Assembly: GCA_965219205.1 (NCBI GenBank)
Contig: CBDCMQ010000005.1
Span: 68,338 to 132,337 of the forward strand
Length of the DNA stretch: 64,000 bases
Reading direction: 5' to 3'
DNA from: Dehalococcoidia bacterium
GTDB lineage: Bacteria > Chloroflexota > Dehalococcoidia > DSTF01 > WHTK01
This document shows positions 5,649 through 55,191 of the stretch, in pieces (the first letter of the stretch is position 1; every line of letters begins with the position of its first letter). The notes below the pieces were generated by a model that worked only from the letters and a program-made list of their open reading frames with translations, was not told the DNA's origin and did no database searches. The position numbers and the translations under genes were made by a program.

Positions 5649-7446
5649 CTAGGCGGCGCTGGCGAAGGTGTCTGTCTGCTTAATCTGAAACTGATACCAG
5701 CAGTTGAAGACGAACCATTGCCAGGCTTCGGCAATGGCTCGTTTTCTCCCTTGCCGGATGTTCTTATCTAACCAGCGAAGGTAGCTCTGCGTCACAATTC
5801 TATCATCAGCGAGTAGATTCAGGCTCGGCACCAGCATTCGGTTCAGCCAGCCAGGAATTGGCGCGCTCGGGAAGGCTTCGTGTTCCCGCTGATTGAAGTC
5901 GATCTGGAGGACATCACGGTAAGACTCTTTGAGCAGCGCTTTATCAAAGGCTTTCGAGTCGATTCCTTTGAACTTTGCTGGCACAGACACGGCAAACGAT
6001 GCTAATCGCGCATCCAGGTACGGCGCCCTCTCATCGAGCCCCAGTAAGGGTGGCATGTACCAGTAAGGGTGGCATGTATTGGTAGAAGAGACAGTTGCGT
6101 GATGCTGACCTGAGAACGATTCTGCCTAACGCTGGCCCCTGAACCTGGTCGAGCTCTTCTAATAGTTCGCGGTTTGCCAGTAGCGCTTCATCTAGAAGGG
6201 TCGTTTCGGGTGGGTGGACGAGGGCACGATTCATGCGCTCCCCCTTGAAGTACCTCCCTTTAAGTCTGGCGGACAACGCTTCGTCCAGAGACTCGAAGGT
6301 TATGCTCTCCTGCCCCCTTTGACGAAAAGCGAAAAGCTCTCCAGCTGCCCCGCCATTTATCACTGAGTCCAATCCACCTGCCAGCGCAGCCGTTGCCAAG
6401 AAGTACTCGCTAACGATGCGACCGGCCGAATCGAACGGCTCGTCAATTCGACGGAGTAAGGTGGACAGCAGCTCCGACGTTACTTCGGCCTCCGGGTCCA
6501 CCAAGATGGTTTGCTGCTGCGTCCCCGTAGCTCTCGCAACGCGTTCCGCCCAGGCGATTTCAGACTCACTGCTAGTTCTTCTATAAGCCAGCGTGAAGGC
6601 TTGTGCGTCGACGTGCCCGCTCTCCTTCAACGCGGACAACATCACCGATGAATCGACCCCGCCGCTGAGATACACACCGACCCTTTCAGCATCACCGACG
6701 GTTCGCCGGACCGCCTGCACCAATTCGTCTCGGGTCCGCTGAAGCCAGTAGTCGAAATCCTCCGGTCCGGTCTCTAACGTCGGGGACCAAAAGCGCTTGG
6801 TCTTCGCCCCAGTGAGAGCGAAAGAAATGCATTCGGCGGGTCGAAGCTTGCGAACACCCTTCGCCAGAGTGAACGGCGCAGCCGGATAGCCGTGGGAGAG
6901 GTAGACAGGCAAGACTGTTTCATCGAGCTGCCGGAGAACTGATGGGTGGGAGAGGATAGCCTTAAGCTCAGTCGAGAAAACTAGCAGCTTCCGCTTAGCA
7001 TCGTGATAGTAATAAACCAGCTTGTGGCCCATGGGGTCAGTGCTGATATGTAGGGTCTTTCGCCGCCGATCCCAGAGGAACAGGCTAAAGACGCCGTCCA
7101 TGGCTTCAGGGAAGGCCGTAGTGTTCTCTTCGAAGTGCGCCACGACGGAGCCCGCATGCGGGCTCTTCATGGAAGACGAGCGGCCCTGCGAATGAGTGGC
7201 TGCATCGTACATGTCGCCATCTACAGCCGCCACAACGTTCTCATCCTCGTGCCAGGAGGGAACATCCTTGCGATGGCCGAAGGTCGCAGTATGGCAGTAG
7301 GCGAGAGCAACGCCGTCGGCCGGATCCACGAAGGTCTTTTGGCCGTCTCGCGCCCGGTGCCGCGTCACGTCCAGCATCGCCTCCAGAGCTTCCGCCGAGG
7401 CCAACTGAGGATGGCCCCTGCTCAGAATCCCGCAGATCAGGCTCAA
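5649..7446 (-). pseudogene. asparagine synthetase (glutamine-hydrolysing, AsnB-like), interrupted by a 19-bp tandem duplication
   Basis: N-terminal ..CGIL Ntn-amidotransferase start and PP-loop motif SGGVDSS. The ORFs 6031..7446 and 5649..6056 overlap. Deleting one 19-nt copy gives a single 593-codon frame (YQYMPPLLGLDERAPYLD...). Confidence 0.8.
6049..6086. repeat. perfect 19-bp tandem duplication (2 x ccagtaagggtggcatgta)
   Basis: Read directly: 6049..6067 is identical to 6068..6086. The length is not a multiple of 3. Confidence 0.95.
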
Positions 7447-7702
7447 GGTCCCTCCCTCTGGATGATGACAAGTCAGCCCGAAACAGACTGCAGGAAGTCC
7501 GACCCTATTGCTTCGGCAGGTGAATCATCGCTCAGGCCGGAGCGCTTGTCGAAATTCGCGGCTCAGAGAGAGTCCATCTTCTAGTCGTACAGCCCCTCTC
7601 TCGGTCCTCCGCCGCTTTTGGGGCGGCTTCGGCCTATAGTGGTAACCGTTCGATGCGTAATGGACGCTTTTTTGAGATAGCTTGAAAGGTGATGAACCGC
7701 CA

Positions 7703-7906
7703 ATGCCTGAAGAACCGACCTCAGAGGAAATGACTTTGGATACGCTGCGCGGGCTTGCGAACCGGACTGGGCTTGAGATCCCCGACGATGAATTGGCTGA
7801 CATGATGCCGGGAGTGTTGCGCAACCTAGCGATGGCGAAGGCGGTTCGAAAATGGGCTGATGCCGGCGTCGAACCATCGACTGCCTCGCTGGCGCCGCGC
7901 TCTTAG
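7703..7906 (+). CDS. GatC/AtzG-like small subunit (67 aa)
   Basis: MPEEPTSEEMTLDTLRGLANRTGLEIPDDELADMMPGVLRNLAMAKAVRKWADAGVEPS.. follows the GatC pattern (A.la.L.l.deE......l..il.....l......gVEP). SD aaaggtga upstream. The stop lies 16 nt before the amidase ATG. Confidence 0.55.
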   Translation: MPEEPTSEEMTLDTLRGLANRTGLEIPDDELADMMPGVLRNLAMAKAVRKWADAGVEPSTASLAPRS

Positions 7907-7922
7907 GGTCCGGGGGTTAATC

Positions 7923-9320
7923 ATGGCAGCACCCGACACTCGCTTCCTGAGCATCGCCGAGGTTGGCGCCCTTCTAAGGCAGCGTTCGATTACCTCAACG
8001 GAGGTCACGCGGACCTCTCTGGACTTGATCGATTCGATTGACAACAAACTGCACAGCTTCATTCTGGTAACGGCCGACCTGGCGCTGGCGCAGGCTGCCA
8101 CGGCCGACGCTGATTTTGCCAAAGGGGTGGACCGCGGCCCGATGCAAGGCATACCGGTGGCGCTCAAAGACCTCTACGCGACCAAGGGCATTGCCACGAC
8201 CGCCCACTCTCGAGTCCTGATCGATTCGATACCAGAAGCGGACTCTGCGGCAGCGGAGTCGTTCCAGAACGCCGGCGCGGTCCTCATGGGCAAGCTGGCG
8301 ATGGACGAATTTGCTTTTGGTGTTTACGACGAGAACGTGCCCTTTCCTCCGGCGCACAATCCTTGGAACCTAGACCACGTGCCCGGCGGGTCAAGCTCGG
8401 GTTCCGGGGTATCGGTGGCCGCGGGTCTAGTCTTCGGAGCGCTCGGGTCAGACACAGGCGGGTCAATTCGCTTCCCGGCGGCCCACTGCGGCATCGCCGG
8501 CATCAAACCGACCTTCGGGCGGGTCAGCCGCCGCGGTGTCGTGCCGCTAAGCTGGTCGCTCGATCACGCCGGCCCGCTGGGCCGGAGCGTAGAGGACTGC
8601 GCCATTTTGTTGCAGGCGATCTCCGGATTCGACCCTGCCGACCCGGCTTCGGCCAACGTACCGGTGGCCGACTTCAGCAGTGATCTCAATGCCGGCATTC
8701 GCGGGTTGCGCCTTGGGGTGCCGCGAGACTGGCTCAACGAGGGTGAGGGTACGGTCCCTGAAGTCGTTGCGGCCTTTGAACGCGCTCTCGAGACCCTGAC
8801 CCAGCTTGGCGCAATCCTGGTCGATCTTCCCGGCGAACCGTTTATCGATGCCCGGCCCGCCAATTCGATCATTTCGATCTCAGAGGCCTTTGCTTATCAC
8901 GAGGAAACGGTGCGCACGCGGCCCCAGGACTTCACACGGAACGTGCGAAACCGGATAAGGGAAGGCGCATTTGTAAGCGCGTCTGACTACGTGCAGGCGC
9001 AAAGGGCGCGCGTGGCTCTGCGTGCAGAAATCGACTCGATTCTGGACGGTGTGGACGCCATTGTTTCGCCGACCGCGCCGGCAACGGCCGAACGATTCGA
9101 CTCGCAAGACCTTGCCGGACGCTTTCGCAAGCCGTCGTTTGCCAACCCAGCCAACCTAACCGGGTTTCCCTCGATCTCGGTTCCCTGTGGTTTCTCTGAG
9201 GCGGGCTTGCCAATGGCTCTGCAGTTCACCGGCCGCGCCTTCGATGAGGTGACGATGTTTCGGCTGGCGAAGGCTTACGAGGATGCTACCGACTGGAGTG
9301 AAAACCACCCCTCGATTTAG
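7923..9320 (+). CDS. amidase-signature enzyme (GatA/AtzE-like)
   Basis: Amidase signature GGSSSGSGVSVAAG and GIPVALKD. The N-terminus MAAPDTRFLSIAEVGALLRQRSITSTEV resembles GatA. The start is taken at ATG 7923, because the longer ORF from 7860 would overlap the small ORF. Confidence 0.85.
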   Translation: MAAPDTRFLSIAEVGALLRQRSITSTEVTRTSLDLIDSIDNKLHSFILVTADLALAQAATADADFAKGVDRGPMQGIPVALKDLYATKGIATTAHSRVLIDSIPEADSAAAESFQNAGAVLMGKLAMDEFAFGVYDENVPFPPAHNPWNLDHVPGGSSSGSGVSVAAGLVFGALGSDTGGSIRFPAAHCGIAGIKPTFGRVSRRGVVPLSWSLDHAGPLGRSVEDCAILLQAISGFDPADPASANVPVADFSSDLNAGIRGLRLGVPRDWLNEGEGTVPEVVAAFERALETLTQLGAILVDLPGEPFIDARPANSIISISEAFAYHEETVRTRPQDFTRNVRNRIREGAFVSASDYVQAQRARVALRAEIDSILDGVDAIVSPTAPATAERFDSQDLAGRFRKPSFANPANLTGFPSISVPCGFSEAGLPMALQFTGRAFDEVTMFRLAKAYEDATDWSENHPSI

Positions 9321-9373
9321 GGCCGGCGGCTTCTGGCAACAAAAGATTCCAGAGCTTTCGGGCGCTGATTCGG

Positions 9374-9408
9374 AAAAAGGGAGCTCCGCTGAACGGTACT
9401 CCCTTTTT
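9374..9408. terminator. bidirectional intrinsic terminator between convergent genes
   Basis: AAAAAGGGAG (9374..9383), a 15-nt loop, then CTCCCTTTTT (9399..9408). Lies between the amidase stop (9320) and the hydrolase stop (9434). Confidence 0.5.
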
Positions 9409-9433
9409 CTAGATGACTAGCGGCTAGGTTTTC

Positions 9434-10342
9434 TCAGGTGACCTTCTCGCCGGCGATGAACTGACGGCAGGCCTCGTTGAAAACCTCGGGGTTCTCCCAG
9501 TGCGCCCAAAAGCCGGTCTGGGGCAGCAGCTTGAACTGAGCGCCGGGGATGATTCCCGCGAGGCGCTCGCCGGCGTCGGGACCGTTGCCGGCGGATCCGT
9601 CACACCAGAGGACCAGGACTGGCAGTTTCAACGTTGCCATCTCCTCCTCGCTGGCGAAGTGGGTCGCCGATGTGCCGGAGTTGAGGCTCTCGTACATCCG
9701 CGTCTGCGCTTCGTTGGTGTGTGGCCGGTTGTAGTGGACAAAACGCGTATCGACCAGTTCATCGGTGACGTGCTCCGGGTGTTCGTAGTGCATCACCATG
9801 AGCAGACGCTCGCGCACGCCCTCCCAGGTTGGGTTCTTTAGCAGCTGGCGGGTGCGCTCGACCATGGGAATGCCACCCACGGGCGGCAAAGGTGGCTTGA
9901 CGGAGCCTTCTTTGAACTTCATGCCGACGCCACTCTCGAGGATGATGCCCTTGAGGCGGTCAGCGTGCTTGCGGGCCATCCAGCTAACGGCGCTGGCGCT
10001 CATCGCTTCTCCGTGGACCCAAGCCTTGTCGATGCCCAGCGTGTCCATCAGATCGATAATCTGGTCGGAGATCTGTTGTGGCGGGTTTTCACCCATCTCC
10101 GGCGCATCGGACCAGCCGTGCCAGAGGATCTCCAGACCAATCGTGTGCATATGCTCGCCGAGAGGGACCACGTTATAGGCGAAGGTTTCCAGGTGGCCGC
10201 CGCCGCCGTGGGTCATGATCAGGACCTCAGGCCTGCCCTGCCCTGCCTCGGCGATGCGGCTGCGGTACTTTTTCCCCTGGACGAAGCGGATGTCAGCACC
10301 CTGCAGGGCGTTCCAGATGGTCAACGGCTGACTCAAAGGCAT
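9434..10342 (-). CDS. alpha/beta hydrolase (C-C bond/meta-cleavage-product hydrolase-like fold) with an atypical nucleophile elbow
   Basis: 302 aa. HGGGG oxyanion region, elbow AMSAS in place of GxSxG, and C-terminal AHWENPEVFN. SD aggagg before the ATG. Confidence 0.75.
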   Translation of the reverse strand: MPLSQPLTIWNALQGADIRFVQGKKYRSRIAEAGQGRPEVLIMTHGGGGHLETFAYNVVPLGEHMHTIGLEILWHGWSDAPEMGENPPQQISDQIIDLMDTLGIDKAWVHGEAMSASAVSWMARKHADRLKGIILESGVGMKFKEGSVKPPLPPVGGIPMVERTRQLLKNPTWEGVRERLLMVMHYEHPEHVTDELVDTRFVHYNRPHTNEAQTRMYESLNSGTSATHFASEEEMATLKLPVLVLWCDGSAGNGPDAGERLAGIIPGAQFKLLPQTGFWAHWENPEVFNEACRQFIAGEKVT

Positions 10343-10461
10343 AAATTTCCTCCTGAATTATTGGCTAAGGTTGCCCAAGTACTCGTACGTTATGTCAATC
10401 GTAATCACCTATTCAAAGTGAGGACCGATTTGTGCAGGCCTCCTGGCCGGGTTGATTTCAA

Positions 10462-11544
10462 TCAGTATCCCCGTTCCCAGTCAACTGTGTTTACCAGTTC
10501 CTCACCGCGCAGCAGGCGGCCGAGGTTTTCGCAGAGAATGTCGATGCCGCCGCGATAGTTGCCGTCGGAGCCGTTGCTTACATGGGGCGTGATGACCAGA
10601 TTGGGCGCTGTTAGCAATTCGGGAATCGGTGGCTGGTCTGTGTCGTTCCACCAAACATCGACGTAGGCGCCGGCTAGTCGACCGTTCTCGAGCGCTTTGA
10701 CCATGGCGAGTTCGTCGACTAGCTCCCCCCTGGCGATGTTGAGGAAAAAGGCACCGGCCTTTGTCACCTCGAACGCCGCTGCGTCTAGCATTCGCTCGGT
10801 CTCGGGAGTCCACATGGCGCAAGGGGCCACGAAGTCTGACTCTGCCAAAAGCGCGTGCGTTTCTGAAGCTGGCAGCAACAGATCAACGCCATCGACATCC
10901 GTCTGGCGCTGTTTGGCCGAGTGCCGGGTCGCGATCACCCGCATACCAGCGCCGCGGGCGAGGCGCGCCAGCTCGCTACCAATTCCACCCAGCCCAATGA
11001 TTCCCATAGTTTTGCCATGCAAGACACTCATGCCCGTGCGGTACGTGTCGGTGTTCAGTTCACGGGCATCTGTCTGGCGCACGGCCACGTCAAGGCGGCG
11101 GGCGAGCATGAAGGCGCCGGCCATTGCTGACTCGGCGATCGGTATGGCGCCGGTCGAGCCTCGGGCGCTGGTCAGCAGCGCCCGACCCCCCCACCAGGCG
11201 CTTTCCCTGAGGTTGCTGACGCCGGCGAAGGGTAGATGGGTCCAAGCCAGGTTGGGCATACGGGCGGCAGCGGTTTTCGGCCAGGGGACACCGACGATCG
11301 CCACACTGGCCTCGTGGATCAGCTCCTCAAGCTGCTCCCGATTCCGTGAAGGCGGCGAAACATTGCCGGCGCGGCGTTTCATGGTTTCCGGCGGCCATTC
11401 TTCGGCAAGTTCGGGCTGAAAGTCGTCCCAAACCGGGTAGACCTTGACCCGGCCGGGTGCAACCGCCTCGATGCGCTCCACAGTGGCAGCGTTCATGGGA
11501 GAAATAACCAAAACGGTCAAGACATCGGGCAGATCAACGGGCAC
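10462..11544 (-). CDS. D-isomer-specific 2-hydroxyacid dehydrogenase family, NAD(P)-binding
   Basis: GIIGLGGIGSELARLARGAGMRVIA (GxGxxG), ARGELVDE and TPHVS motifs. Confidence 0.85.
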   Translation of the reverse strand: MPVDLPDVLTVLVISPMNAATVERIEAVAPGRVKVYPVWDDFQPELAEEWPPETMKRRAGNVSPPSRNREQLEELIHEASVAIVGVPWPKTAAARMPNLAWTHLPFAGVSNLRESAWWGGRALLTSARGSTGAIPIAESAMAGAFMLARRLDVAVRQTDARELNTDTYRTGMSVLHGKTMGIIGLGGIGSELARLARGAGMRVIATRHSAKQRQTDVDGVDLLLPASETHALLAESDFVAPCAMWTPETERMLDAAAFEVTKAGAFFLNIARGELVDELAMVKALENGRLAGAYVDVWWNDTDQPPIPELLTAPNLVITPHVSNGSDGNYRGGIDILCENLGRLLRGEELVNTVDWERGY

Positions 11545-46408: not shown

Positions 46409-47731
46409 CTAAACTCTGTCCTCCGGAATCGTATGGTTGTGTCTTAGGTCGTCCCAACCGTCGGAGGCCATCCAGTCGGCCCAGGATCGGTAAAACCAGA
46501 GCTGTGCGTGCTCGTTTACGTTCGGCGCCTCGACTCGTGGCGGGCCTAGTTCATCGTCGATGATGTCGCCATGGCCGATGCTCATGGCGTAATTGAGCGG
46601 GAATTGCTTGCTGATAGTGCCGTTGGCACCCAGGGTGCTCTGACCCCAGTTCTCGCCGTCATCCTGCTCCAGCATGCCGGCCGGGCCAAAGTTGTGAATC
46701 CGGCGGTCTAGCCGCTCCCGGTTGATATCGACGGGGGCCGACTTGTCTAGGATTGTGAACCACCAGATTTCGGTACTTTGGGGGCCTTTTGGGATGCGTA
46801 GGCTGACCTGGTTGGTGGTTAACCACAGATTGGGAAAGATATGTGGGTGTCCGCCTTGCATGATACCGACTGGACCCAGCGCGTCCTTCGCGGACTGCTG
46901 CTCTCGCCAGGCATCGTCGTCGATTCCGGTTGTCCGACTTGTGAGATCGCGTTGGGCGTCGGTGCTCTTGGCGCCGCTGACAACGTGGCCGTACTCTCCC
47001 AGCAATACTTGTTGAGGCCGGGACAGAGTGGCGGACAAAGTTTGACGGACGCGCGCAAAACCGGCCATCTGCTGTGAAGCGTGAGTGATCTGGGGGTGAT
47101 AAAAGTCCCAAACATTATCGGCGGCGAATTTCCAGTTGCAAGGGATCGTGTACTTCTGAATGCCAGGCAGGACTGTCATATCACCACGCTCAGCTATGAT
47201 CATAAGGCCGATTTTGCCGGTCTCGCCAAGGTAGTCGTCTAATTCGGGTGCTGCAGGGTCCATGTTGGCGAAGATGAAGCCCTTGTAGCTATCGACCTTA
47301 GCGGCCTTGATTAAACCCCAGTTCTCACGATCCAGTTCTTCGTGGTAGACCTCTTTGAAACCGGGCACGCCTACCAGGTCACCCTTGAGATCGTAGGTCC
47401 AGCCATGATAGGTGCACATGAAAGATGTGGCGTGACCTTCCTCGGCACGGCAAACGGCGTTGCCGCGGTGGCGGCAGGTGTTGACCAGCACTTGGGGGTT
47501 ACCATCGTTGTCACGGACAACAATGACGCGGTCTTCACCGATGAAAGTCATGAAGAAGTCGCCGGGGTTGGGGATCTGGGTTTGGTGGGCTACGAAATTC
47601 CAGGCGCGGGCGAAGATGCGCTCCAACTCCAGCTCGTAGATATCCTGGTCGGCGAAGATCCGGCGGTCGACGATGCCTTTATGGGCGTCGACCAGCGCCA
47701 GCATTTCGTTGCGATTGCCTAAAAGCGTCAT
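46409..47731 (-). CDS. Rieske oxygenase alpha subunit (close paralog group, member 3)
   Basis: CRHRGNAVCRAEEGHATSFMCTYHGW and DFYHPQITH. Confidence 0.9.
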   Translation of the reverse strand: MTLLGNRNEMLALVDAHKGIVDRRIFADQDIYELELERIFARAWNFVAHQTQIPNPGDFFMTFIGEDRVIVVRDNDGNPQVLVNTCRHRGNAVCRAEEGHATSFMCTYHGWTYDLKGDLVGVPGFKEVYHEELDRENWGLIKAAKVDSYKGFIFANMDPAAPELDDYLGETGKIGLMIIAERGDMTVLPGIQKYTIPCNWKFAADNVWDFYHPQITHASQQMAGFARVRQTLSATLSRPQQVLLGEYGHVVSGAKSTDAQRDLTSRTTGIDDDAWREQQSAKDALGPVGIMQGGHPHIFPNLWLTTNQVSLRIPKGPQSTEIWWFTILDKSAPVDINRERLDRRIHNFGPAGMLEQDDGENWGQSTLGANGTISKQFPLNYAMSIGHGDIIDDELGPPRVEAPNVNEHAQLWFYRSWADWMASDGWDDLRHNHTIPEDRV

Positions 47732-47901
47732 GGATTCGCCTTTCTGATCATCGGGCTAATTTCCTTGCTTAGGCAATTAAAACACCCGAATCGAGAAAAG
47801 TCGATCCCTGCTGAACGTGATAATGGAAGTCAAGTTTGGCGCGCACAACTACCTTGGTCCTAAAATGATTTCGGCCGGGGCGAAGTAGAGGAGCGGGATT
47901 T

Positions 47902-48048
47902 ATGAGCATCTGGTGTGCAGGTTCAAGCGAAAAGGTTTACAGGGCTGTCAATACAGCGCCTTGTCCAAAGTGTGGCAAGATCGTCGATCTCACCCAGCAA
48001 GGGCACATCAAGCCGCATGTTGGGACCAAGGCACCGGCGAAAGGCTAA
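47902..48048 (+). CDS. candidate small Cys-rich (zinc-ribbon-like) protein, 48 aa (below the ORF-track cutoff)
   Basis: The ATG at 47902 lies 9 nt after agaggag. MSIWCAGSSEKVYRAVNTAPCPKCGKIVDLTQQGHIKPHVGTKAPAKG*. It sits in a different frame from the listed ORF 47913..48098. Confidence 0.4.
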   Translation: MSIWCAGSSEKVYRAVNTAPCPKCGKIVDLTQQGHIKPHVGTKAPAKG

Positions 48049-48213
48049 GTTGGACGGTGATGGCGGTTTGCCTGGTTGAGGCCGGCGGGCCTGCTTGAAA
48101 AACTAACAGTCCTCAGGAATGTCAGACATTAGTGCTAATAGACAGGCAGGGCCGCTGCGACAGTTGAGGCCTGTGCCAGATTTCATTAGTGCGCTCCGTC
48201 AGGACGCAGCACC

Positions 48214-49515
48214 TTGATCCGACGGGCAAGGACGCGGGTCTTTCACGGCTGGTGGATAGTCGTCAACGGATTCTTGATTCAGCTTCTGATCTCGGGCCTG
48301 CTGCAGAGGTCCTTTGGCGCCTACATCGTCCTATTCCGAGACCAGTTTGGCTGGAGCAAGACGGCGCTATCGGGCGCCTTCTCGCTGCAGCAGGTGGAGA
48401 ACGGGCTCCTCGGTCCCCTACAAGGCTGGGTGATCGACCGGTTCGGCCCACGCGCCAGCATGCGAGTTGGCATCGTTTTCTTCGGGCTTGGTTTCATCAC
48501 CCTGAGTCTTATGAATTCACTGCTAACCTTCTATTTCGCCTTCGCCTTGCTGGCAATCGGCAGCAGTACCTCAGGCTTCTTCCCGATCACGGTGACGGTT
48601 GTTAGCTGGTTTGAGCGCCGGCGAACGCGCGCCCTCGCCCTGGTTTCGTTGGGATTTGCGGTAGGCGGCTTGCTGGTACCAATTGTGGCATTTGTGCTGG
48701 AGGAATTTGGCTGGAGAGGAACCGCCTTCGGCTCTGGTGTCCTGGTGATAGCTGTTGGCATTCCATTGACGCAAGTGTTCCGCAAAGAGCCGTCAAGGCC
48801 TGGAGAGTACGTGGACGGAATCAAGCCGACCGGCGCCGTGAGGGCGAGTCAACCCGGCGAGACTAGCGGCGAGGTCAGCTTTACCGCCGGGGAGGCCGTG
48901 CGTACGCGGGCCTTCTGGCTGATTTCCCTGGGTCATTCCGCGTCTCTGCTTGTCGTGCAAGCCGTGAACGTTCACTTGATCATTCACCTGAACGAGAGCC
49001 TCGGCTATTCGTTGGCCACGGCCTCGCTGGCCGTGACAATGTTGAACGCCTTCCAGATCGTTGGCAACCTGATCGGGGGCGAATTGGGCGATCGTTACAG
49101 CAAGCGCATAATCACAGCTCTAACCATGGTGCTGCACGCCAGCGGCCTTCTGATGCTGGCTTTTGCCAGCAACCTGGCAATGGTGGTTGGTTTCGCGCTG
49201 CTGCATGGCACCGGTTGGGGCGTGCGCGGCCCGCTTATGCAGGCGATTAGAGCTGATTACTTCGGTACACGCTCTATCGGCATGATCGTCGGCCTCTCCT
49301 CGATGATCACGATGATCGGCAACACCTCTGGTCCTCTGATCGCTGGCGCTTTGGCTGATGCGACCGGAGACTACAAACTTGGATTTACCCTGCTGGCGGT
49401 GCTGGCAGGGTTGGGTTCGGGCTTCTTCTTCATGGCCAAGAAGCCGGCGCCTCCGGCACGAAGCACCAGCCCAGCGCCGGGCAGGCCTTCTCCGCCGGTG
49501 AGCTACCAGGAGTAG
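48214..49515 (+). CDS. MFS transporter
   Basis: 433 aa with about 12 hydrophobic segments. FGAYIVLFRDQFGWSKTALSGAFSL. Confidence 0.85.
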   Translation: MIRRARTRVFHGWWIVVNGFLIQLLISGLLQRSFGAYIVLFRDQFGWSKTALSGAFSLQQVENGLLGPLQGWVIDRFGPRASMRVGIVFFGLGFITLSLMNSLLTFYFAFALLAIGSSTSGFFPITVTVVSWFERRRTRALALVSLGFAVGGLLVPIVAFVLEEFGWRGTAFGSGVLVIAVGIPLTQVFRKEPSRPGEYVDGIKPTGAVRASQPGETSGEVSFTAGEAVRTRAFWLISLGHSASLLVVQAVNVHLIIHLNESLGYSLATASLAVTMLNAFQIVGNLIGGELGDRYSKRIITALTMVLHASGLLMLAFASNLAMVVGFALLHGTGWGVRGPLMQAIRADYFGTRSIGMIVGLSSMITMIGNTSGPLIAGALADATGDYKLGFTLLAVLAGLGSGFFFMAKKPAPPARSTSPAPGRPSPPVSYQE

Positions 49516-49560
49516 GGCTTTTCTGTTCTCCAACTCTTCGAGGCAGTAAAATTGCAGTTG

Positions 49561-49854
49561 ATGCAACGCTCGCCGAAGCTGGAGATCGAGTACTGCACCC
49601 AGTGCCGCTGGCTCACCCGCGCCACCTGGGTGGCTCAAGAGTTGCTTACAACTTTCGTCGAAGATCTCAAAGAAGTCTCGATCGTCCCGGGCAAGGGTGG
49701 AGTCTTCAACGTGACGGTTGACGACGCTTTGATCTGGTCCAGAGCCGAGGCCCGCCGCTTTCCTGAATTGTCTGAATTGAAGCAACTGGTTCGTGACCAG
49801 GTTGCACCGGGGCGCAGCCTGGGACATAGCGACAACAAGAAAGAAGAAGTGTAG
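49561..49854 (+). CDS. Rdx (SelW/SelT/SelH-like) CxxC thioredoxin-fold protein
   Basis: KLEIEYCTQCRWLTRATWVAQELL...PGKGGVFNVTVDDALIWSR...RFPELSELKQLVRD. Cys (not Sec) version. Confidence 0.75.
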   Translation: MQRSPKLEIEYCTQCRWLTRATWVAQELLTTFVEDLKEVSIVPGKGGVFNVTVDDALIWSRAEARRFPELSELKQLVRDQVAPGRSLGHSDNKKEEV

Positions 49855-49932
49855 CCGGCACGTCTTCAAGTATCCGAGTGAGCTCGAACCTGATGCACGG
49901 CCGCGGAATTCCGCCTGCTACTATCAAGGCAT

Positions 49933-49966
49933 GACCATGCTTTCGTTTTCCACCATGTGGGCGCAG
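49933..49966 (+). repeat. 34-bp direct repeat, copy 1 (duplicated 5' end of the gene at 51994)
   Basis: gaccatgctttcgttttccacCatgtgggcgcag versus 52002..52035 (33 of 34 identical). It sits in a short frame, 49931..50008, reading MTMLSFSTMWAQ then unrelated sequence. Confidence 0.9.
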
Positions 49967-50128
49967 TATCCACCCGTATGCGCCATGCCGTTGAATCTGC
50001 GAGCCTGAGCGAAACCTGCTCACTTATCGTTGATCCGAATCCCATATTGGCCGGGTGCTTTATTCTCCGAGAGTATCTGAAGTCACCCGGCTGCCAACCC
50101 TCCTGTGCGATCCTGGGTCGTCTAGTTG

Positions 50129-50161
50129 TTGCAGTTCGTTTGCAATCCGTTTGCAGTCGGG
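50129..50161. repeat. three tandem 11-bp repeats (ttgcagttcgt ttgcaatccgt ttgcagtcggg)
   Basis: Read directly. The period is 11 bp. Located in the non-coding stretch downstream of the NHL/TSP3 gene. Confidence 0.7.
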
Positions 50162-50243
50162 CCAACTCTCCAAAGCCGCGCGCCTGTGGAGCTGCTGACC
50201 GGGCAGGCCGCTCAAGTCGACGCTGTCAAGAATTTCAGAGCGG

Positions 50244-51865
50244 TTAATCGCTCGATGCTAGGCCAGCATCTCCGGTACTCGGTGGCGAGATCTGTTGCTG
50301 GGCAGCTGCCGTTTCACGGTTCTCACGCGCCTGCTGAGCGCCACCTGCAATCACTGCCCCGAGGCCGGCGCCGAGGTTTACTGCCGGAGGCTCAACTACC
50401 TCTAGCGGGGCATCACCCTCCCCGACATCTTGCCCATCCACCGTGATGACACCGTCCAGCGATTCAACCGTCACGCTAAGCAATTCAGAGCCATCGAATG
50501 TCTCTGTTATCAGGGCCGTCTCGCCGGGGTCAATGACTACGAGAACGATTGTCCCGTCAACCGGAATCTCTATTTCGGCCGGCCCTCCCAGTTCGGTTGT
50601 CACCGTAGAGACAGCCTGTGGATCTGTAAGCACATAAGTGCCGGCACGCAGCCAGTAGAATCCGCTCTTGCCGTCGAGTCTGATCAGGACGCGTTGGAAG
50701 AAACTGCCGCCCGTCACTACAACCCGCACGCCAGCGGGGTTGGCAGCCTCCGTTATTGCAACACCCATGCCAGCCGGAACGCTGACCATTGATCCTGCGG
50801 TGGCGCCGCCGAGTCCAAGGTCGGAGAAACGGCTGCTGGCAGTAGTCGGAGTTTCATCCACGGTGTCGTCGATGCCATCACCGTCCTCGTCCACACCAGG
50901 GCAGCCGTCAGCATCAAGGACACCATCCAGATCTTCTGGATCGCCTGGGCAATCGTCGGAGCCGGTGCAGGCGGAGGGACCCACGCCGGGAGCGGCTGGG
51001 TCACATACCCCGTCCCCATCAGCATCTACCTGAGCGTCGGAGCAACCACCGGCGTCAACCGCGACAGCCCCCGTGCCGGGGCAGTCATCGCTGCCCGTAC
51101 AGGCCGAGGGACCTAAGCCGGGAGCGGCTGGGTCACAGACCCCATCACCGTCCGCGTCAACTTGGGCGTCGGAACAGCCGTTGCCGTCCACCACTGTGGC
51201 CGCAGGCGTGCCGGGGCAAAGGTCGCTGCTGTCTGGAACGCAGTCGCCGTCGGTAAGCACCACGGCCCCGACCTCGCGTATGCGCTGGTTGTTAGTATTC
51301 GCGATGAAGATATTGCCGGAGCCGTCCAAGAAAACACCCTGGGGGCTCCCACCTGTGCGGTGGTGGCCGGGATACCGTCGCCATTGAAGCCCGCCGCGCC
51401 CGTGCCGGCCACGGTGCTGATCAGGCCGGTGGCCGCGTCTACCTTGCGGATGCGATTGTTCGTCTGATCCGCGATGAAGATATTGCCGGCGCCATCCACA
51501 GAAACGCCGCGTGGGTTGTGCAGACGCGCGCTTGTGGCGGGGATCCCATCGCCGTTGTAGCCGAATGTGCCTGTGCCGGCTACCGTGCTGATCAGGCCGG
51601 TGGCCGCGTCCACCCTGCGGACGCGATGGCTCGTCTGATCCCCACTGAAGATATCTCCGGAGCCGTCGACAAAAACACCTCGTGGGTTGTGCAGATTCGC
51701 GGATGTGGCGGGGATGCCGTCGCGGTTGACGCCGGATGTCCCCGTGCCGGCTACGGTCCTGATCACGCCGGGCTGTGCAAAGACCGTCGTGGCCAGGACG
51801 AGCATGCCGAGCGTTAAAGCCAGCAACCAGAATGACGTTCTGCTTTTACGCAAGCGTGGAATCAT
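50244..51865 (-). CDS. secreted NHL-repeat / thrombospondin-type-3 (Ca-binding DxDxDG) repeat protein, interrupted by a 1-nt frameshift
   Basis: Signal peptide (SFWLLALTLGMLVLATTVFA). Four NHL-like units (IRTVAGTG..G..GDGIPATSA.L..PRGV.VD..GNIFIAD..N.RIR.V). Two copies of a ~37-aa unit, CSDAQVDADGDGVCDPAAPG.GPSACTGSDDCPG. The ORFs 51113..51865 and 50244..51329 join if the run at 51337..51339 has one more base. Confidence 0.75.
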
Positions 51866-51993
51866 CGTTACCCTTCAAGCCTGTGCGAGCGGTTGGCCGT
51901 CCTACGCCCATTCTACAGCCACGGGTCGAGTCCACTGCATGTACTAATCTGAGCCGTCATGTAAACGGCTATGAGCGATAATGAAAGCTAAGA

Positions 51994-52914
51994 ATGTCTG
52001 AGACCATGCTTTCGTTTTCCACTATGTGGGCGCAGCAGGATCGCTTCCGCGACTTGGAGCCATTCCGTCGCCAAGTCGCGTCCTATGGCTTTACCGGGAT
52101 CGAGGTTAGCCATTCGACTGACGATGCCGGCCTGGCCACCCTCATGGGTGAGGGTGAGATTTCGCTGACAAGTTTGCATGCGCCGACGCCGAGCCGGAAA
52201 TTGGGGGATGGCAGACCAAACGGCGATGCCAACCTGGCTTCGACCGATGAGGTGGAGCGACTTTTGGCGCTGGTTGAGACCAAGCGCACGCTGGGTTATG
52301 CGGCTCGCGCCGGCCTGCCTTTTGTGGTCATTCATTTGGGTGGAGTTGGCAACTACATGACCGATCTTGAACGGCAGCTGCGGCGCCTGTTTCAGGAGGG
52401 CGGTGCTGAAAGCGAAGATGCCCAGTCTCTGAGACACGAGCTTGCAGCATGGCGGGTTGCCGGCGCTGAGCCTCATATTGAAGCCGCGAAAAAGTCGCTC
52501 AAGGAATTGGTTGAGTTCGCCGCACCACACGGGATTGCGCTCGGCCTCGAAAGCCGGCTGCACTATCACGAAATACCTCACCCGGAAGAGGCCGTGTATC
52601 TAGTTTCCGACTTTAGCAACGAAGTAGCCGGCTACTGGCACGATGTCGGCCACTGCGAAGTCCAGGCCCGCCTTGGCATGATCGACCGTGATTCCTGGTT
52701 TCCGCGACTCACGCCTCTGACGATCGGCAGCCACCTGCACGACGTCGATGGAATTGCCGACCATCGGGCGCCGGCCAACGGCGACGTCGACTGGTCCTAT
52801 ATCGCCGCCGGTTTGCCGGAGTTGGCGCTGCGCGTTTTCGAAATCGATCAGCGCCAGCCCGATGATAAAGTCGCCGCCAGCATTGAGTTCCTGCGCTCTC
52901 AGGGCGTTGTCTAG
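51994..52914 (+). CDS. sugar phosphate isomerase/epimerase (xylose-isomerase-like TIM barrel) family
   Basis: 306 aa. GFTGIEVSH, VVIHLGG, LGLESR and HLHDVDG motifs. Confidence 0.7.
   Translation: MSETMLSFSTMWAQQDRFRDLEPFRRQVASYGFTGIEVSHSTDDAGLATLMGEGEISLTSLHAPTPSRKLGDGRPNGDANLASTDEVERLLALVETKRTLGYAARAGLPFVVIHLGGVGNYMTDLERQLRRLFQEGGAESEDAQSLRHELAAWRVAGAEPHIEAAKKSLKELVEFAAPHGIALGLESRLHYHEIPHPEEAVYLVSDFSNEVAGYWHDVGHCEVQARLGMIDRDSWFPRLTPLTIGSHLHDVDGIADHRAPANGDVDWSYIAAGLPELALRVFEIDQRQPDDKVAASIEFLRSQGVV
52002..52035 (+). repeat. 34-bp direct repeat, copy 2 (native 5' end of the TIM-barrel gene)
   Basis: gaccatgctttcgttttccacTatgtgggcgcag. Confidence 0.9.
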
Positions 52915-53021
52915 CTCGGACCCGGAATCGTTGCGATAATCGCCAGGTACGGCGTCTGGATTCGGGCCGCCTTCGAGGGGGACAGTAGGCAGCTGGTGAG
53001 AGGGAACGGAGATCGAGTCTC

Positions 53022-54725
53022 TTGAGAATGTCGCAGTCATTCGGCAAGACCCTGCGGGAAGCGCCGGCTGAGGCTGAGCATGACTCCCACCAGTTACTGC
53101 TAAGAGCCGGGCTGGTTCAGCAAGCGGCGGCTGGCATTTACAGCTATTTGCCCCTCGGCTGGAGAGTCCTGCGGAAAATAGAGCAGATCATTCGCGAAGA
53201 GATGGACGCTGCCGGCGGGCAAGAGTTGCTGATGCCGGTTTTGGTTCCCAGCGACCTGCTGGAGGAGACCGGCCGGCGCCAGACGATGTCGCCAATCCTG
53301 TTCGCGCTTCTGGACCGCCGTGAGCGCAAACTGGTGCTCGGACCAACCCATGAGGAGGCTGCTATCGATCTCTTTCGTCGAAACGTTCAGAGCTATCGTG
53401 ACCTGCCGTTGATGCTCTACCAGATCGAGACCAAGTTCCGGGATGAAGCTCGGCCGCGGATGGGCCTCATCCGGGGGCGTGAGTTTGGCATGTTGGACCT
53501 CTACAGCTTCCACGCCGATGTTGAGGACCTGGACCGGGGCTACCAGCGCATGTACGAGGCTTACGAGCATGTCTTCCAGCGCTGTGGCGTGCCAGCGGTT
53601 TCGGTGTTTGCCGATTCCGGCGCGATCGGCGGCAAAGAGAGCCAGGAATTCATGCTTTTGACCGACATAGGCGAGGATGAATTGGTTGTCTGTCCGGCCT
53701 GCGCGTACGCAGCCAACACGGAGCGCGCCGAACACCGCAAGCCGGAGGCAGCTGCCGGAGAGCCGGGTCAGCTAGAGGAAGTGAGCACGCCTGACCAGAA
53801 GACGATCGAGCAGGTTGCGAACTTTCTCGGCGCGCCCACCACCGAGACGTTGAAGGCTGTGTTTTACATGGCCGACGACGAGCCAGTGTTTGTGGCGATT
53901 CGCGGCGACCTAACGGTGAATGAGGTGAAGCTGCGCAACGCGACCAAAGCGCTGGAAGTGCGCGCCATGACGGACGACGAGACCAAAGCATCTGGTCTGG
54001 TGGCGGGCTTTGCTTCGCCAGTTGGCCTAAAGGATATTCGAGTTGTCGCCGACGATTCGGTCGCGGAAACGCCGAACCTGATCGCCGGAGCCAACAAGCC
54101 CGGCTTTCACCTCAAGAACGTCAACTACGGCCGAGATTGGCAAGCCGATTTGATCGCCGACCTGTCATTGACCAGAGAAGGCGATATCTGCATCGATTGC
54201 GGATCTGCGGTTGAGGTCAAGCGCGGCATTGAAATGGGGCATATCTTCAAACTTTTGACGGTCTGGAGCGAGAAGATGCAAGCAACATTCCTCGACGCTG
54301 CTGGTCAAGAGCAGATTCCGCTTATGGGAACCTATGGAATTGGCACATCGCGGTTGTTGCAGTGCGTTATCGAGGCCAATCACGATGAGAACGGCATCAT
54401 TTGGCCGGCCTCGATCGCCCCTTACGATCTGCATATTGTCGGTCTTGGTTTGGACGGCGAGGAGACGGCGGAAAAGGCTGAGGACCTATACAATTCGCTA
54501 CTCGAAGCAGGCTTTGACGTGCTGTTTGACGATCGGGCCGAGCCAACGGCCGGTGTTAAATTTAACGATGCCGACCTGATCGGCCTGCCGCTGCGGGTTA
54601 CGGTCAGCCCTCGCTCTTTAGCGAAGGGTGCCGTTGAGGTAAAACGGCGCGGCGATGGTGAGTTGGAGCTCATCCCCTACGAGGAGGCGGTGGCTCACTT
54701 GAAAGCGGCTGTGGCGGCGAGCTGA
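53022..54725 (+). CDS. proS: prolyl-tRNA synthetase, bacterial type
   Basis: [61 protein letters not shown] matches the ProRS N-terminus. 567 aa with an insertion (editing) domain. The start may be the ATG at 53028. Confidence 0.95.
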
Positions 54726-54782
54726 GCATTACCAAGGCTCGTCGCCAATCGGCGCCCTCTGTTAAACTGACCTGTGTTCGGC

Positions 54783-54859
54783 CGGGGCGTAGCGCAGTCC
54801 GGTAGCGCACTTGACTGGGGGTCAAGAGGTCGCTGGTTCGAATCCAGTCGCCCCGACCA
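54783..54859 (+). tRNA. tRNA-Pro (anticodon GGG), CCA encoded
   Basis: Manual cloverleaf: acceptor CGGGGCG/CGCCCCG, D-stem GCGC/GCGC, anticodon stem CTTGA/TCAAG with loop CTGGGGG, T-arm GCTGG-TTCGAAT-CCAGT, then A-CCA. Confidence 0.9.
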
Positions 54860-54871
54860 TGTCTTGCATCT

Positions 54872-54906
54872 AAGACTGCCTTCGAAAGAGGGCAGTCTTT
54901 GTTTGT
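54872..54906 (+). terminator. intrinsic terminator after tRNA-Pro
   Basis: AAGACTGCC (54872..54880), a 10-nt loop, GGCAGTCTT (54891..54899), then tgtttgt. Confidence 0.6.
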
Positions 54907-55191
54907 CGTCAGCGAAATGACAGCCATCGTGACAGCCACCCATCTGGCAGCCCCGCTCGTTTCGACGGGCGTTGTACGAGTGGTGCAAGTTGTTGCCATC
55001 GATAGGCGTACCGATTCTAGTCGTGAAAACCATTCAAGCCCGCTTGCTTGAGTTGTGACCTTCGCTGGCCTCTACCACACGTCGTCTAGCATTAACCCTC
55101 TTAGGTATAAACTTGGCACCAAAGCCAGGCCGAGTAGGGGTCTGCCATCAAAGCTCGTGTTCAGCCCGCGAGAACCGAGGAGATAACTAAA

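What the first reader, a model, noticed from the sequence alone, without database searches (positions are those of the whole stretch)
49933..52035. 2-kb cassette bracketed by a 34-bp direct repeat that duplicates the 5' end of the adjacent gene
Seen in sequence: gaccatgctttcgttttccac[C/T]atgtgggcgcag occurs at 49933..49966 and at 52002..52035 (33 of 34 identical). Copy 2 forms codons 4-14 of the TIM-barrel isomerase gene (MSETMLSFSTMWAQQDRF..). Copy 1 sits behind its own ATG (49931) and reads MTMLSFSTMWAQ before diverging into a short dead-end frame. The 2035 bp between them contains only the oppositely oriented NHL/TSP3 repeat-protein gene and an 11-bp tandem array. This is the footprint of a cassette insertion or duplicative rearrangement into the start of the isomerase gene. 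The repeat is far longer than a transposase target duplication. It fits better with a site-specific att core or microhomology-mediated insertion, but no recombinase accompanies it.
Basis: seen in the sequence. Interest (0 to 1): 0.6.

Follow-up and report, generated by a model that had tools for sequence, protein, structure and literature searches.

The report
Integrase-less island relic in gene start
A 2-kb piece of DNA carrying a surface-protein gene was inserted into the first 12 codons of a sugar-isomerase-like gene in an uncultured Dehalococcoidia bacterium. The 34-bp repeat at its two ends is most likely the attachment-site scar of a decayed genomic island, which is an ordinary kind of event.

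Summary
The 34-mer occurs at 49933-49966 and 52002-52035 (33/34 identical), with no other copy in the 2.98-Mb genome and none expected by chance.

The closest relative, G012 (about 83% DNA identity), has a precise empty site: one 34-mer copy, with the Rdx gene 78 nt upstream of the TIM-barrel gene. The structure is therefore a lineage-specific insertion of 2035 bp plus a 34-bp duplication. Two further assemblies (an ENA contig and two Logan contigs) carry both junctions.

Copy 1 keeps the native upstream region and start codon. Copy 2 rebuilds the intact gene behind a new ATG supplied by the insert.

The insert's left end, including the 3x11-bp array, is homologous to the far end of two decayed tRNA-integrated islands (tRNA-Leu in this genome, tRNA-Met in G012). 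Its 18-mer GTTTGCAATCCGTTTGCA lies 1 nt from the stop codon of intact tyrosine integrases in other genomes of the order. Those integrases sit next to tRNA genes and, in one case, next to a protein gene's 3' end.

Best reading (about 0.6): a relic of site-specific island integration, with the 34-mer as the att identity block and the integrase lost. Rivals are template-switch or illegitimate insertion. This is a known kind of event and of modest interest.

The parts
49855..49932 (+). Native Rdx-TIM spacer and 5' leader, now left upstream of the displaced gene start
   Evidence: Aligns colinearly with the 78-nt spacer between the Rdx stop and the TIM start in G012.
49933..49966 (+). Repeat copy 1: the displaced native 5' end of the TIM gene (attL-like)
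   Evidence: 33/34 identical to copy 2. It is continuous with the native upstream region found in G012.
49931..50008 (+). Dead-end 25-codon frame (MTMLSFSTMWAQ, then 13 unrelated codons and a stop)
   Evidence: ORF list and sequence.
49967..50082 (.). Left-end 116 nt of the insert, with no detectable homolog
   Evidence: No match in the own genome or G012, and none to tRNAs.
50083..50228 (+). Homolog of the far ('distal') arm of tRNA-integrated islands
   Evidence: 82% identical to C6:7208-7350. That arm abuts the displaced tRNA-Leu fragment in C6, and its G012 homolog abuts a displaced tRNA-Met fragment, both in the same orientation.
50129..50161 (+). 3x11-bp array containing the 18-mer GTTTGCAATCCGTTTGCA (50138-50155)
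   Evidence: The same 18-mer occurs at both ends of the C6 island. It lies 1 nt from the stop codon of intact integrases in G028, G064 and G048. The pattern has 20 matches in 15 of 93 genomes of the order, against 1 for the reversed control.
50244..51865 (-). Cargo gene: a secreted NHL-repeat / thrombospondin-type-3-repeat protein with an uncharacterised C-terminal domain. It is read in two frames, with a 1-nt shift at 51337-51345.
   Evidence: PF25021 and PF01436 match the N-terminal part. Homologs of the C-terminal part carry PF02412. Positions 50083-51229 are 83% identical to the cargo gene of the C6 island. The frameshift is present in all three assemblies.
51866..52001 (.). Right-end 136 nt of the insert. 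It supplies the new in-frame ATG (51994) and, by inference, the promoter for TIM-proS.
   Evidence: No similarity to the TIM upstream region of 17 relatives or to the C6 island's right end. No integrase or arm motif is present.
52002..52035 (+). Repeat copy 2: the rebuilt 5' end of the intact TIM gene (attR-like)
   Evidence: It is continuous with the gene, whose product is 94% identical to G012's.
51994..52914 (+). Target gene: xylose-isomerase-like TIM-barrel protein, intact
   Evidence: PF01261, E 9e-15. Orthologs are present in 30 of 41 genomes searched, the own genome included.

Best explanation
Shown: after the split from its nearest known relative, this lineage acquired 2035 bp of DNA between codons 12 and 13 of the TIM-barrel gene, together with a 34-bp duplication of the gene's first codons. 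The upstream copy keeps the native leader and start codon and now runs into a dead end. The downstream copy restores the complete coding sequence behind a new start codon supplied by the insert.

Inferred: the insert is the remnant of a small genomic island of a tyrosine-integrase family that is common in this Dehalococcoidia order. It entered as a circle by one reciprocal (Campbell-type) crossover within a 34-bp block shared by the element's attP and the gene. That block is the att identity block, which served as a replacement 5' end so that the target gene stayed functional.

The geometry matches the family. The island's far arm, with its TTGCAA-type 11-bp repeats, lies next to the displaced gene fragment. 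The intact gene lies on the side where the integrase and the near arm should be. That integrase-side part has since been deleted, or the element was moved by an integrase acting in trans. What remains is the cargo gene, one arm and the two repeats.
For: Polarity and reality of the insertion:
- G012 has a single 34-mer, and both flanks meet exactly there.
- G003, G004 and G008 have one copy of the motif and no flanking repeat.
- The two window copies differ at 1 site, while G012 differs from them at 3-4 sites.
- Three assemblies agree on the structure.

Link to an island family:
- Window 50083-51229 is 83% identical to the cargo gene and arm of an island in contig C6. That island is bracketed by a 68-bp repeat of the tRNA-Leu(caa) 3' part and holds a truncated PF00589 integrase next to the intact tRNA.
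- The same arm abuts a displaced tRNA-Met fragment in G012, in an island bracketed by an 81-bp repeat. G000 has a near-empty site at that tRNA-Met.
- TTTGCAATCCG occurs three times in the genome: in the window arm and at both ends of the C6 island.
- GTTTGCANNNNGTTTGCA has 20 matches in 15 of 93 genomes of the order, against 1 for the reversed control.
- In G028, G064 and G048 the motif lies 1 nt from the stop codon of intact integrases of 392, 428 and 379 aa. The C6 remnant is 48% identical to the G028 integrase, E 3e-35.
- The motif lies 58-60 nt from tRNA 3' ends in five cases.

The family also uses protein-gene sites. In G064 the element follows the last codons of a cysteine-synthase-like gene. 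G048 carries the same last 18 nt next to the motif without the gene, which is what a replacement gene end looks like. The G064 integrase is 60% identical to the tRNA-Cys-associated integrase of G028.

Base rate: among isolated direct repeats of at least 97% identity in this genome, the only other gene-bracketing pair is the C6 tRNA-Leu island. The third pair is an 80-bp repeat 319 bp apart at C1:27859, which I only eyeballed.

Literature: att identity blocks extend up to about 250 bp when attP carries a replacement sequence that keeps the target gene functional (PMC10111431). 43% of mapped islands lie in protein-coding sequences (PMC12424338).
Against: - No integrase or integrase fragment lies in the insert or within about 70 kb.
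- The right end lacks the arm motif and resembles nothing else.
- The first 63 nt of the arm, which abut the repeat in C6 and G012, are replaced here by 116 unrelated nt.
- Among 36 genomes of the order that carry the TIM motif, none has a nearby second copy. The TIM start is therefore not a recurrent attachment site.
- The repeat matches this lineage's own codon choices. That would also fit a duplication made during the insertion itself.
Confidence: 0.6

Rival explanations
1. Duplicative illegitimate insertion. A replication fork or break-repair synthesis left the TIM gene after codon 12, copied about 2 kb from a paralogous island-borne surface-protein locus, and re-entered the original template 34 nt behind the exit point. 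This is a template-switch (MMBIR-like) event or filler DNA at a staggered break. The 34-bp repeat would then be a by-product. Only events that rebuilt the gene start survived selection.
For: - No recombinase and only one arm are present.
- The repeat is identical to the host's own sequence, even at sites where G012 differs.
- No other genome has a nearby second copy of the TIM start.
- The 116 nt between the repeat and the arm are unmatched.
Against: - No donor copy was found. The best paralog is only 83% identical and partial. The 361-aa C-terminal product and a close variant of the 250-aa N-terminal product are on record only at this locus.
- The island arm lies near the junction in the family's orientation. 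I estimate this as about 6% likely for a random fragment.
- Among isolated repeats of at least 97% identity, the only other gene-bracketing pair in the genome is an integrase-type island with the same arm and cargo family.
- The repeat begins at the third base of the native start codon.
Confidence: 0.22
2. Homology-facilitated illegitimate recombination. DNA from a sister strain in which the NHL gene natively abuts the TIM start recombined homologously inside or downstream of TIM. Its other end joined illegitimately after codon 12 of the recipient gene.
For: The mechanism is documented in several bacteria (PMC3240628). It would explain why the repeat ends at the start of the coding sequence. 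The copy-2 N-terminus MSET loosely recalls MSSQ in G003.
Against: The 136 nt upstream of copy 2 show no significant similarity to the TIM upstream region of any of 17 relatives. No genome has NHL next to TIM. This reading only moves the question of how NHL reached the TIM start to another strain.
Confidence: 0.07
3. Reverse polarity. The cassette and its repeats are ancestral to G000 and G012, and G012 lost them by recombination between the 34-bp repeats.
For: Recombination between direct repeats would leave exactly the G012 sequence.
Against: The two copies differ at 1 of 34 sites, whereas G012 differs from them at 3-4. For a duplication as old as the split I estimate about 4 expected differences (Poisson P about 0.09). 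G003, G004 and G008 have no second copy and hold unrelated genes in the interval. G012 has no DNA match to the NHL part of the gene.
Confidence: 0.06
4. Assembly artefact of a metagenome-assembled genome.
For: The genome is an 88%-complete MAG with homopolymer frameshifts.
Against: Both junctions appear in three assemblies. These include single-run Logan contigs and an ENA contig that differs by 15 substitutions and one 3-bp gap. Both flanks are syntenic with G012.
Confidence: 0.02

Closest known systems
Genomic islands and prophages whose attP carries a replacement end of the target gene (phage 21 and e14 at icd, islands in tRNA genes; TIGER/Islander class)
   Same: Direct repeats form an identity block of tens of bp. 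There is a precise empty site in a relative, and the target gene is rebuilt and intact after insertion. The island arm carries short repeated motifs next to the block. PMC10111431 states this rule, and PMC12424338 reports that 43% of islands lie in coding sequences.
   Different: There is no integrase inside and only about 2 kb with a single cargo gene. The block replaces the 5' end and supplies a new start codon, rather than replacing a 3' end. The integrase-side arm is missing. Mobility has not been demonstrated.
The decayed tRNA-Leu(caa) island in contig C6 of the same genome, and the tRNA-Met island of relative G012
   Same: They share a homologous far arm with the 11-bp repeats in the same orientation next to the displaced fragment. 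C6 also carries a paralogous TSP3-type cargo gene (83% identical). All are small (3.4-3.6 kb) and degenerate.
   Different: Those islands sit in tRNA genes, with 68- and 81-bp repeats that end in the anticodon loop. C6 keeps an integrase stump and the arm motif at both ends.
Integrase-less cis-mobilizable elements (CIMEs) and mobilizable islands that use a helper's integrase (own knowledge)
   Same: Flanking att repeats with cargo and no integrase.
   Different: No intact helper element with the same attachment site was found in this 88%-complete genome, so no helper-satellite pair can be named.
Templated insertions with flanking duplication from replication template switching (FoSTeS/MMBIR; own knowledge)
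   Same: An insertion flanked by a duplication longer than any transposase target duplication, with no recombinase needed.
   Different: No donor template or junction microhomology can be shown. The presence and orientation of an island arm are not predicted by this mechanism.

Membership tests
Integrative genomic island (tyrosine-integrase type) | Flanking direct repeats (attL/attR identity block) | tested here: met
   34 bp, 33/34 identical, unique in the genome.
Integrative genomic island (tyrosine-integrase type) | Uninterrupted attB with a precise empty site in a related genome | tested here: met
   In G012 both flank alignments overlap on a single 34-mer, L023 8965-8998.
Integrative genomic island (tyrosine-integrase type) | Integrase gene inside the element | tested here: not met
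   No PF00589 match in C5:118304-120338. The nearest is at C5:193771. The NHL gene fills 50244-51865.
Integrative genomic island (tyrosine-integrase type) | Target gene kept functional by a replacement sequence in attP | tested here: met
   The 306-aa ORF is intact and 94% identical to G012's. The insert supplies an in-frame ATG at 51994. Expression was not tested.
Integrative genomic island (tyrosine-integrase type) | Arm sequences shared with integrase-bearing relatives | tested here: met
   One arm only. Window 50083-50228 is homologous to the C6 and G012 arms. The 18-mer abuts integrase stop codons in G028, G064 and G048. The integrase-side arm is absent.
Integrative genomic island (tyrosine-integrase type) | Excision: circular junction or empty-site molecules in the population | not testable with these tools
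Transposon or insertion sequence with a target-site duplication | Transposase, terminal inverted repeats, and a duplication of 2-14 bp | tested here: not met
   No inverted repeat joins the two ends. The only sizeable gene is the NHL/TSP3 gene. The duplication is 34 bp.
Integron gene cassette | attC recombination site and a nearby IntI integrase with attI | tested here: not met
   No tyrosine recombinase within about 70 kb. No Rfam family matches 49500-52500. No imperfect inverted repeat lies at the cassette end.
Integrase-less mobilizable element (CIME-like) | A resident helper element with an integrase using the same att site | tested here: inconclusive
   There are seven PF00589 loci in the genome. 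None lies next to a copy of the 34-mer or next to an intact arm motif, apart from the C6 stump. The genome is only 88% complete.

The most novel reading that the evidence does not exclude
The 2-kb unit is not a dead relic but a working mini-island. It would be an integrase-less cassette with one arm, one surface-protein gene and a 34-bp att block, moved in trans by an integrase of the TTGCAA-arm island family. It has retargeted from tRNA genes to the first 12 codons of a protein gene. On insertion it replaces that gene's promoter and start codon, and so rewires expression of the TIM-proS-tRNA-Pro unit.
Probability: 0.12. Interest if true: 0.55.

Novelty: new member of a known kind. Interest (0 to 1): 0.33.

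Why it matters
The case is a clean, datable example of how a gene start can be split and rebuilt by an inserted element in an uncultured marine or subsurface-type Dehalococcoidia lineage.

It also explains the 'iteron-like' 11-bp array flagged separately. That array is the arm motif of a tyrosine-integrase island family found in 15 of 93 genomes of the order, at tRNA genes and at least one protein gene.

This helps annotators recognise island ends, and integrase-less relics below the size and content thresholds of island finders, in these MAGs. It also marks the Rdx-TIM interval as a gene-flux hotspot.

It does not point to a new mechanism.

Tried and rejected
- Dispersed repeat: rejected, with two copies only.
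- Donor locus for the insert: not found in the own genome or relatives, only an 83% partial paralog. Genome contigs returned only generic NHL hits of 37-66%. Two exact-pattern scans of metagenome contigs gave 0 hits.
- Other contexts for the exact proteins: none.
- Native TIM upstream as the origin of the right end: not significant in 17 relatives. An apparent GCGATAAT..ATGTC match to G003 was at chance level.
- tRNA-like fragment or pseudo-attB similarity in the insert ends or the TIM site: none.
- Similarity of the right end to the C6 island's right end: none.
- Structured RNA, Rfam family, promoter or terminator calls in 49400-52500: nothing above background.
- Recurrent use of the TIM start as attB: 36 genomes carry the motif, and none has a nearby second copy. 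The second copies in G074 and G020 are a divergent duplicate locus and an unrelated hit.
- Genome-wide pattern of similar young repeat-bracketed cassettes: only the C6 island qualifies.
- The 33-bp repeat around a nitroreductase gene (C3:502614/503561): it has no clean empty site in G012, which lacks both neighbouring genes.
- Far repeat copies of the intact elements in G064, G028 and G048: not found within the contigs.
Full report
**Observation.** The 34-mer GACCATGCTTTCGTTTTCCAC[C/T]ATGTGGGCGCAG lies at 49933-49966 and 52002-52035, with 33 of 34 bases identical. Allowing three mismatches, it has only these two copies in the window (0 expected in shuffles) and in the whole genome of 2.98 Mb in 9 contigs.
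- Copy 2 runs from the last base of codon 3 through codon 14 of a 306-aa xylose-isomerase-like TIM-barrel ORF (PF01261).
- Copy 1 follows its own ATG at 49931 and reads MTMLSFSTMWAQ before running into 13 unrelated codons and a stop.
- The 2035 bp in between hold one minus-strand gene and a 3x11-bp array at 50129-50161. The gene encodes a secreted NHL-repeat / thrombospondin-type-3-repeat protein.

**Is it real?** Three assemblies agree.
- An ENA contig (ERZ25072587:contig_37, 289 kb) is 99.86% identical over 13 kb, with 15 substitutions and one 3-bp gap. It has both repeats, the C/T difference and the same frameshift.
- Two Logan contigs built from the single run ERR13605531 cross the left junction (window 47630-50342) and the right junction (51084-54821).

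**Polarity.** The organism is an uncultured Dehalococcoidia. The closest species-level relative, G012 (OZ252017.1), aligns at about 83% identity on both sides.
- Window 47860-49966 and 52002-54940 map to adjoining stretches of G012 that overlap by exactly one 34-mer.
- In G012 the Rdx gene is followed after 78 nt by the TIM gene (MTILSFSTMWAQQ). That spacer is homologous to the sequence upstream of copy 1 in the window. Copy 1 is therefore the original gene start with its native leader, and copy 2 is the rebuilt start.
- The two window copies differ at one site, while G012 differs from them at three and four sites.
- Three further species of the genus have one copy of the motif, no flanking repeat, and unrelated genes in the Rdx-TIM interval.
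- The simplest history is one insertion of 2035 bp plus a 34-bp duplication in this lineage after its split from G012.

**What the insert is.** Positions 50083-51229 are 83% identical to a locus on contig C6 of the same genome.
- The C6 locus is a 3.4-kb segment bracketed by a perfect 68-bp repeat. The repeat consists of the 3' 57 nt of tRNA-Leu(caa) plus 11 nt.
- The segment holds a paralogous TSP3-type gene. Next to the intact tRNA it holds the C-terminal half of a tyrosine integrase, with a frameshift and a stop. It is a decayed integrated island.
- The non-coding stretch between the displaced tRNA-Leu fragment and the cargo gene is what I call the far arm. Its positions 64-206 (of the 206-nt query) are what the window shares.
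- The same arm abuts a displaced tRNA-Met fragment in G012, in an island bracketed by an 81-bp repeat. The G000 site at that tRNA-Met is nearly empty.
- In both tRNA cases the repeat ends in the anticodon loop, exactly where the arm begins.
- A rearranged copy of the arm lies 60 nt downstream of tRNA-Gly on contig C7.

**The 11-bp array.** TTTGCAATCCG occurs three times in the genome: in the window arm and at both ends of the C6 island. The second C6 copy lies between the integrase stump and the tRNA.
- Across the order, GTTTGCANNNNGTTTGCA has 20 matches in 15 of 93 genomes, against one for the reversed control. Most matches are the identical 18-mer.
- In G028, G064 and G048 the motif sits 1 nt from the stop codon of intact integrases of 392, 428 and 379 aa. 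PF00589 matches end 62 nt away in all three.
- The C6 stump is 48% identical to the G028 integrase (E 3e-35).
- The motif lies 58-60 nt from the 3' end of tRNA-Lys, -Arg, -Pro, -Cys and -Leu.
- In G064 the element instead follows the last codons (..DKIWW-stop) of a cysteine-synthase-like gene. G048 carries those same 18 nt next to the motif without the gene, which is the signature of a replacement gene end in attP. The G064 integrase is 60% identical to the tRNA-Cys-associated one.
- The array is therefore an arm motif of a tyrosine-integrase island family that uses both tRNA and protein-gene sites. I infer that it binds the integrase or an accessory protein. This was not tested.

**Mechanism.** The window's layout fits the family. 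In order it reads: displaced fragment, far arm in the family's orientation, cargo, and then the intact target gene on the side where the integrase and near arm should be.
- This is the known rule that att identity blocks extend to tens or hundreds of bp when attP carries a replacement sequence that keeps the target gene functional (PMC10111431). 43% of mapped islands lie in coding sequences (PMC12424338).
- I therefore read the 34-mer as an att identity block and the insert as a derivative that has lost its integrase and near arm (confidence 0.6).
- The repeat starting at the third base of the native start codon fits a replacement 5' end. Homology would be kept only where it codes.

**What does not fit.**
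- There is no integrase or fragment in or near the insert.
- There is no motif at the right end, and the right end resembles nothing.
- 116 unmatched nt separate the repeat from the arm.
- No other genome of the order has a nearby second copy of the TIM start.
- The repeat matches this lineage's own codon usage, as a duplication made during insertion also would.

**Rivals.**
- Template-switch or break-repair insertion that copied an island-borne paralog (0.22).
- Homology-facilitated illegitimate recombination from a sister strain (0.07).
- Ancestral cassette lost from G012 (0.06).
- Assembly artefact (0.02).

**Consequences (inferred).** The insertion cuts TIM, proS and tRNA-Pro off from the MFS-Rdx upstream region. 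Their transcription must now start in the 128 nt between the divergent NHL and TIM genes, or further downstream. The native leader now drives a 25-codon dead end that runs antisense into the 3' end of the NHL gene.

**Verdict.** It is a degenerate member of a known kind of element and of modest interest. A useful by-product is the recognition of an order-wide island family through its arm motif.

Noticed in passing
own genome contig C6:7077-10642 (outside the window): A decayed 3.4-kb island in tRNA-Leu(caa). It has a perfect 68-bp repeat (7077-7144 / 10543-10610), a TSP3-type cargo gene at 7365..9597 (also split into two frames), an integrase stump at about 9938-10446 with a TAG stop, and the GTTTGCAATCCGTTTGCA motif at both ends (7264, 10479).
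   Followed up: yes
L121 (G064:C42), L129 (G028:C17), L122/L132 (G048:C23); motif at locus positions 1501-1518: An order-wide tyrosine-integrase island family recognisable by the motif TTGCAAACGGATTGCAAAC 1 nt from the integrase stop codon. Attachment sites include tRNA-Cys and the 3' end of a cysteine-synthase-like gene. The pattern has 20 matches in 15 of 93 genomes, against 1 for the reversed control.
   Followed up: partly
L108/L109 (G012:C1:1036124-1071149): G012 carries a prophage of about 35 kb at the same tRNA-Leu(caa), bounded by a 65-bp repeat. It encodes a 418-aa integrase next to the tRNA, a terminase large subunit, a ParB-like protein and an HNH protein.
   Followed up: partly
window 51337-51345: A 1-nt frameshift in a short C/G run splits the NHL/TSP3 gene. 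The repeat consensus predicts ..APRGVFLDGSG... The shift is present in all three assemblies, including single-run Logan contigs. It is either a true pseudogene or a systematic sequencing error. The C6 paralog and other genes of this MAG are split in the same way.
   Followed up: partly
window 50814-51741: 7 of the 15 substitutions between the window and the ENA contig fall inside the 2-kb insert (binomial P about 0.004). Possible causes are relaxed constraint, diversifying selection on a surface protein, or exchange among the 171-bp NHL repeats.
   Followed up: no
window 49855-51993 and L024, L025, L026: The Rdx-TIM interval is a gene-content hotspot in the genus. It is empty in G012. It holds a secreted HExxH (M61-like) protein in G004 and G008, with two more genes in G008, and 6.7 kb of unrelated genes in G003.
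   Followed up: partly
own genome C4:222966-223520: Downstream of tRNA-Met, two copies of about 40 nt (..CTCTTAGTAT..ATTGCAAACGGA..) contain the arm motif in reverse orientation. They flank about 400 nt with a small minus-strand ORF. The site corresponds to the 3.6-kb island in G012 and may be a mini-relic.
   Followed up: partly
own genome C9:331665-333132: The last ~115 nt of the glyA (serine hydroxymethyltransferase) gene recur 1347 bp downstream at about 90% identity and bracket a 173-aa ORF. This is another gene-end duplication around a small cassette, and an older one.
   Followed up: no
own genome C3:502614-503593: A 33-bp repeat (30/33 identical) containing an ATG and five codons brackets a nitroreductase gene. 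G012 lacks both this gene and the NmrA-like neighbour, so no empty site can be shown.
   Followed up: partly
window 50244-50380; C6:7365-7500; C4:154105-154231; C3:536153-536562: A shared C-terminal tail (..GGLGAVIAGGAQQARENRE..QQISPPSTGDAGLASSD) ends several otherwise different secreted repeat proteins of this genome. It may be a lineage-specific anchoring or sorting signal.
   Followed up: no
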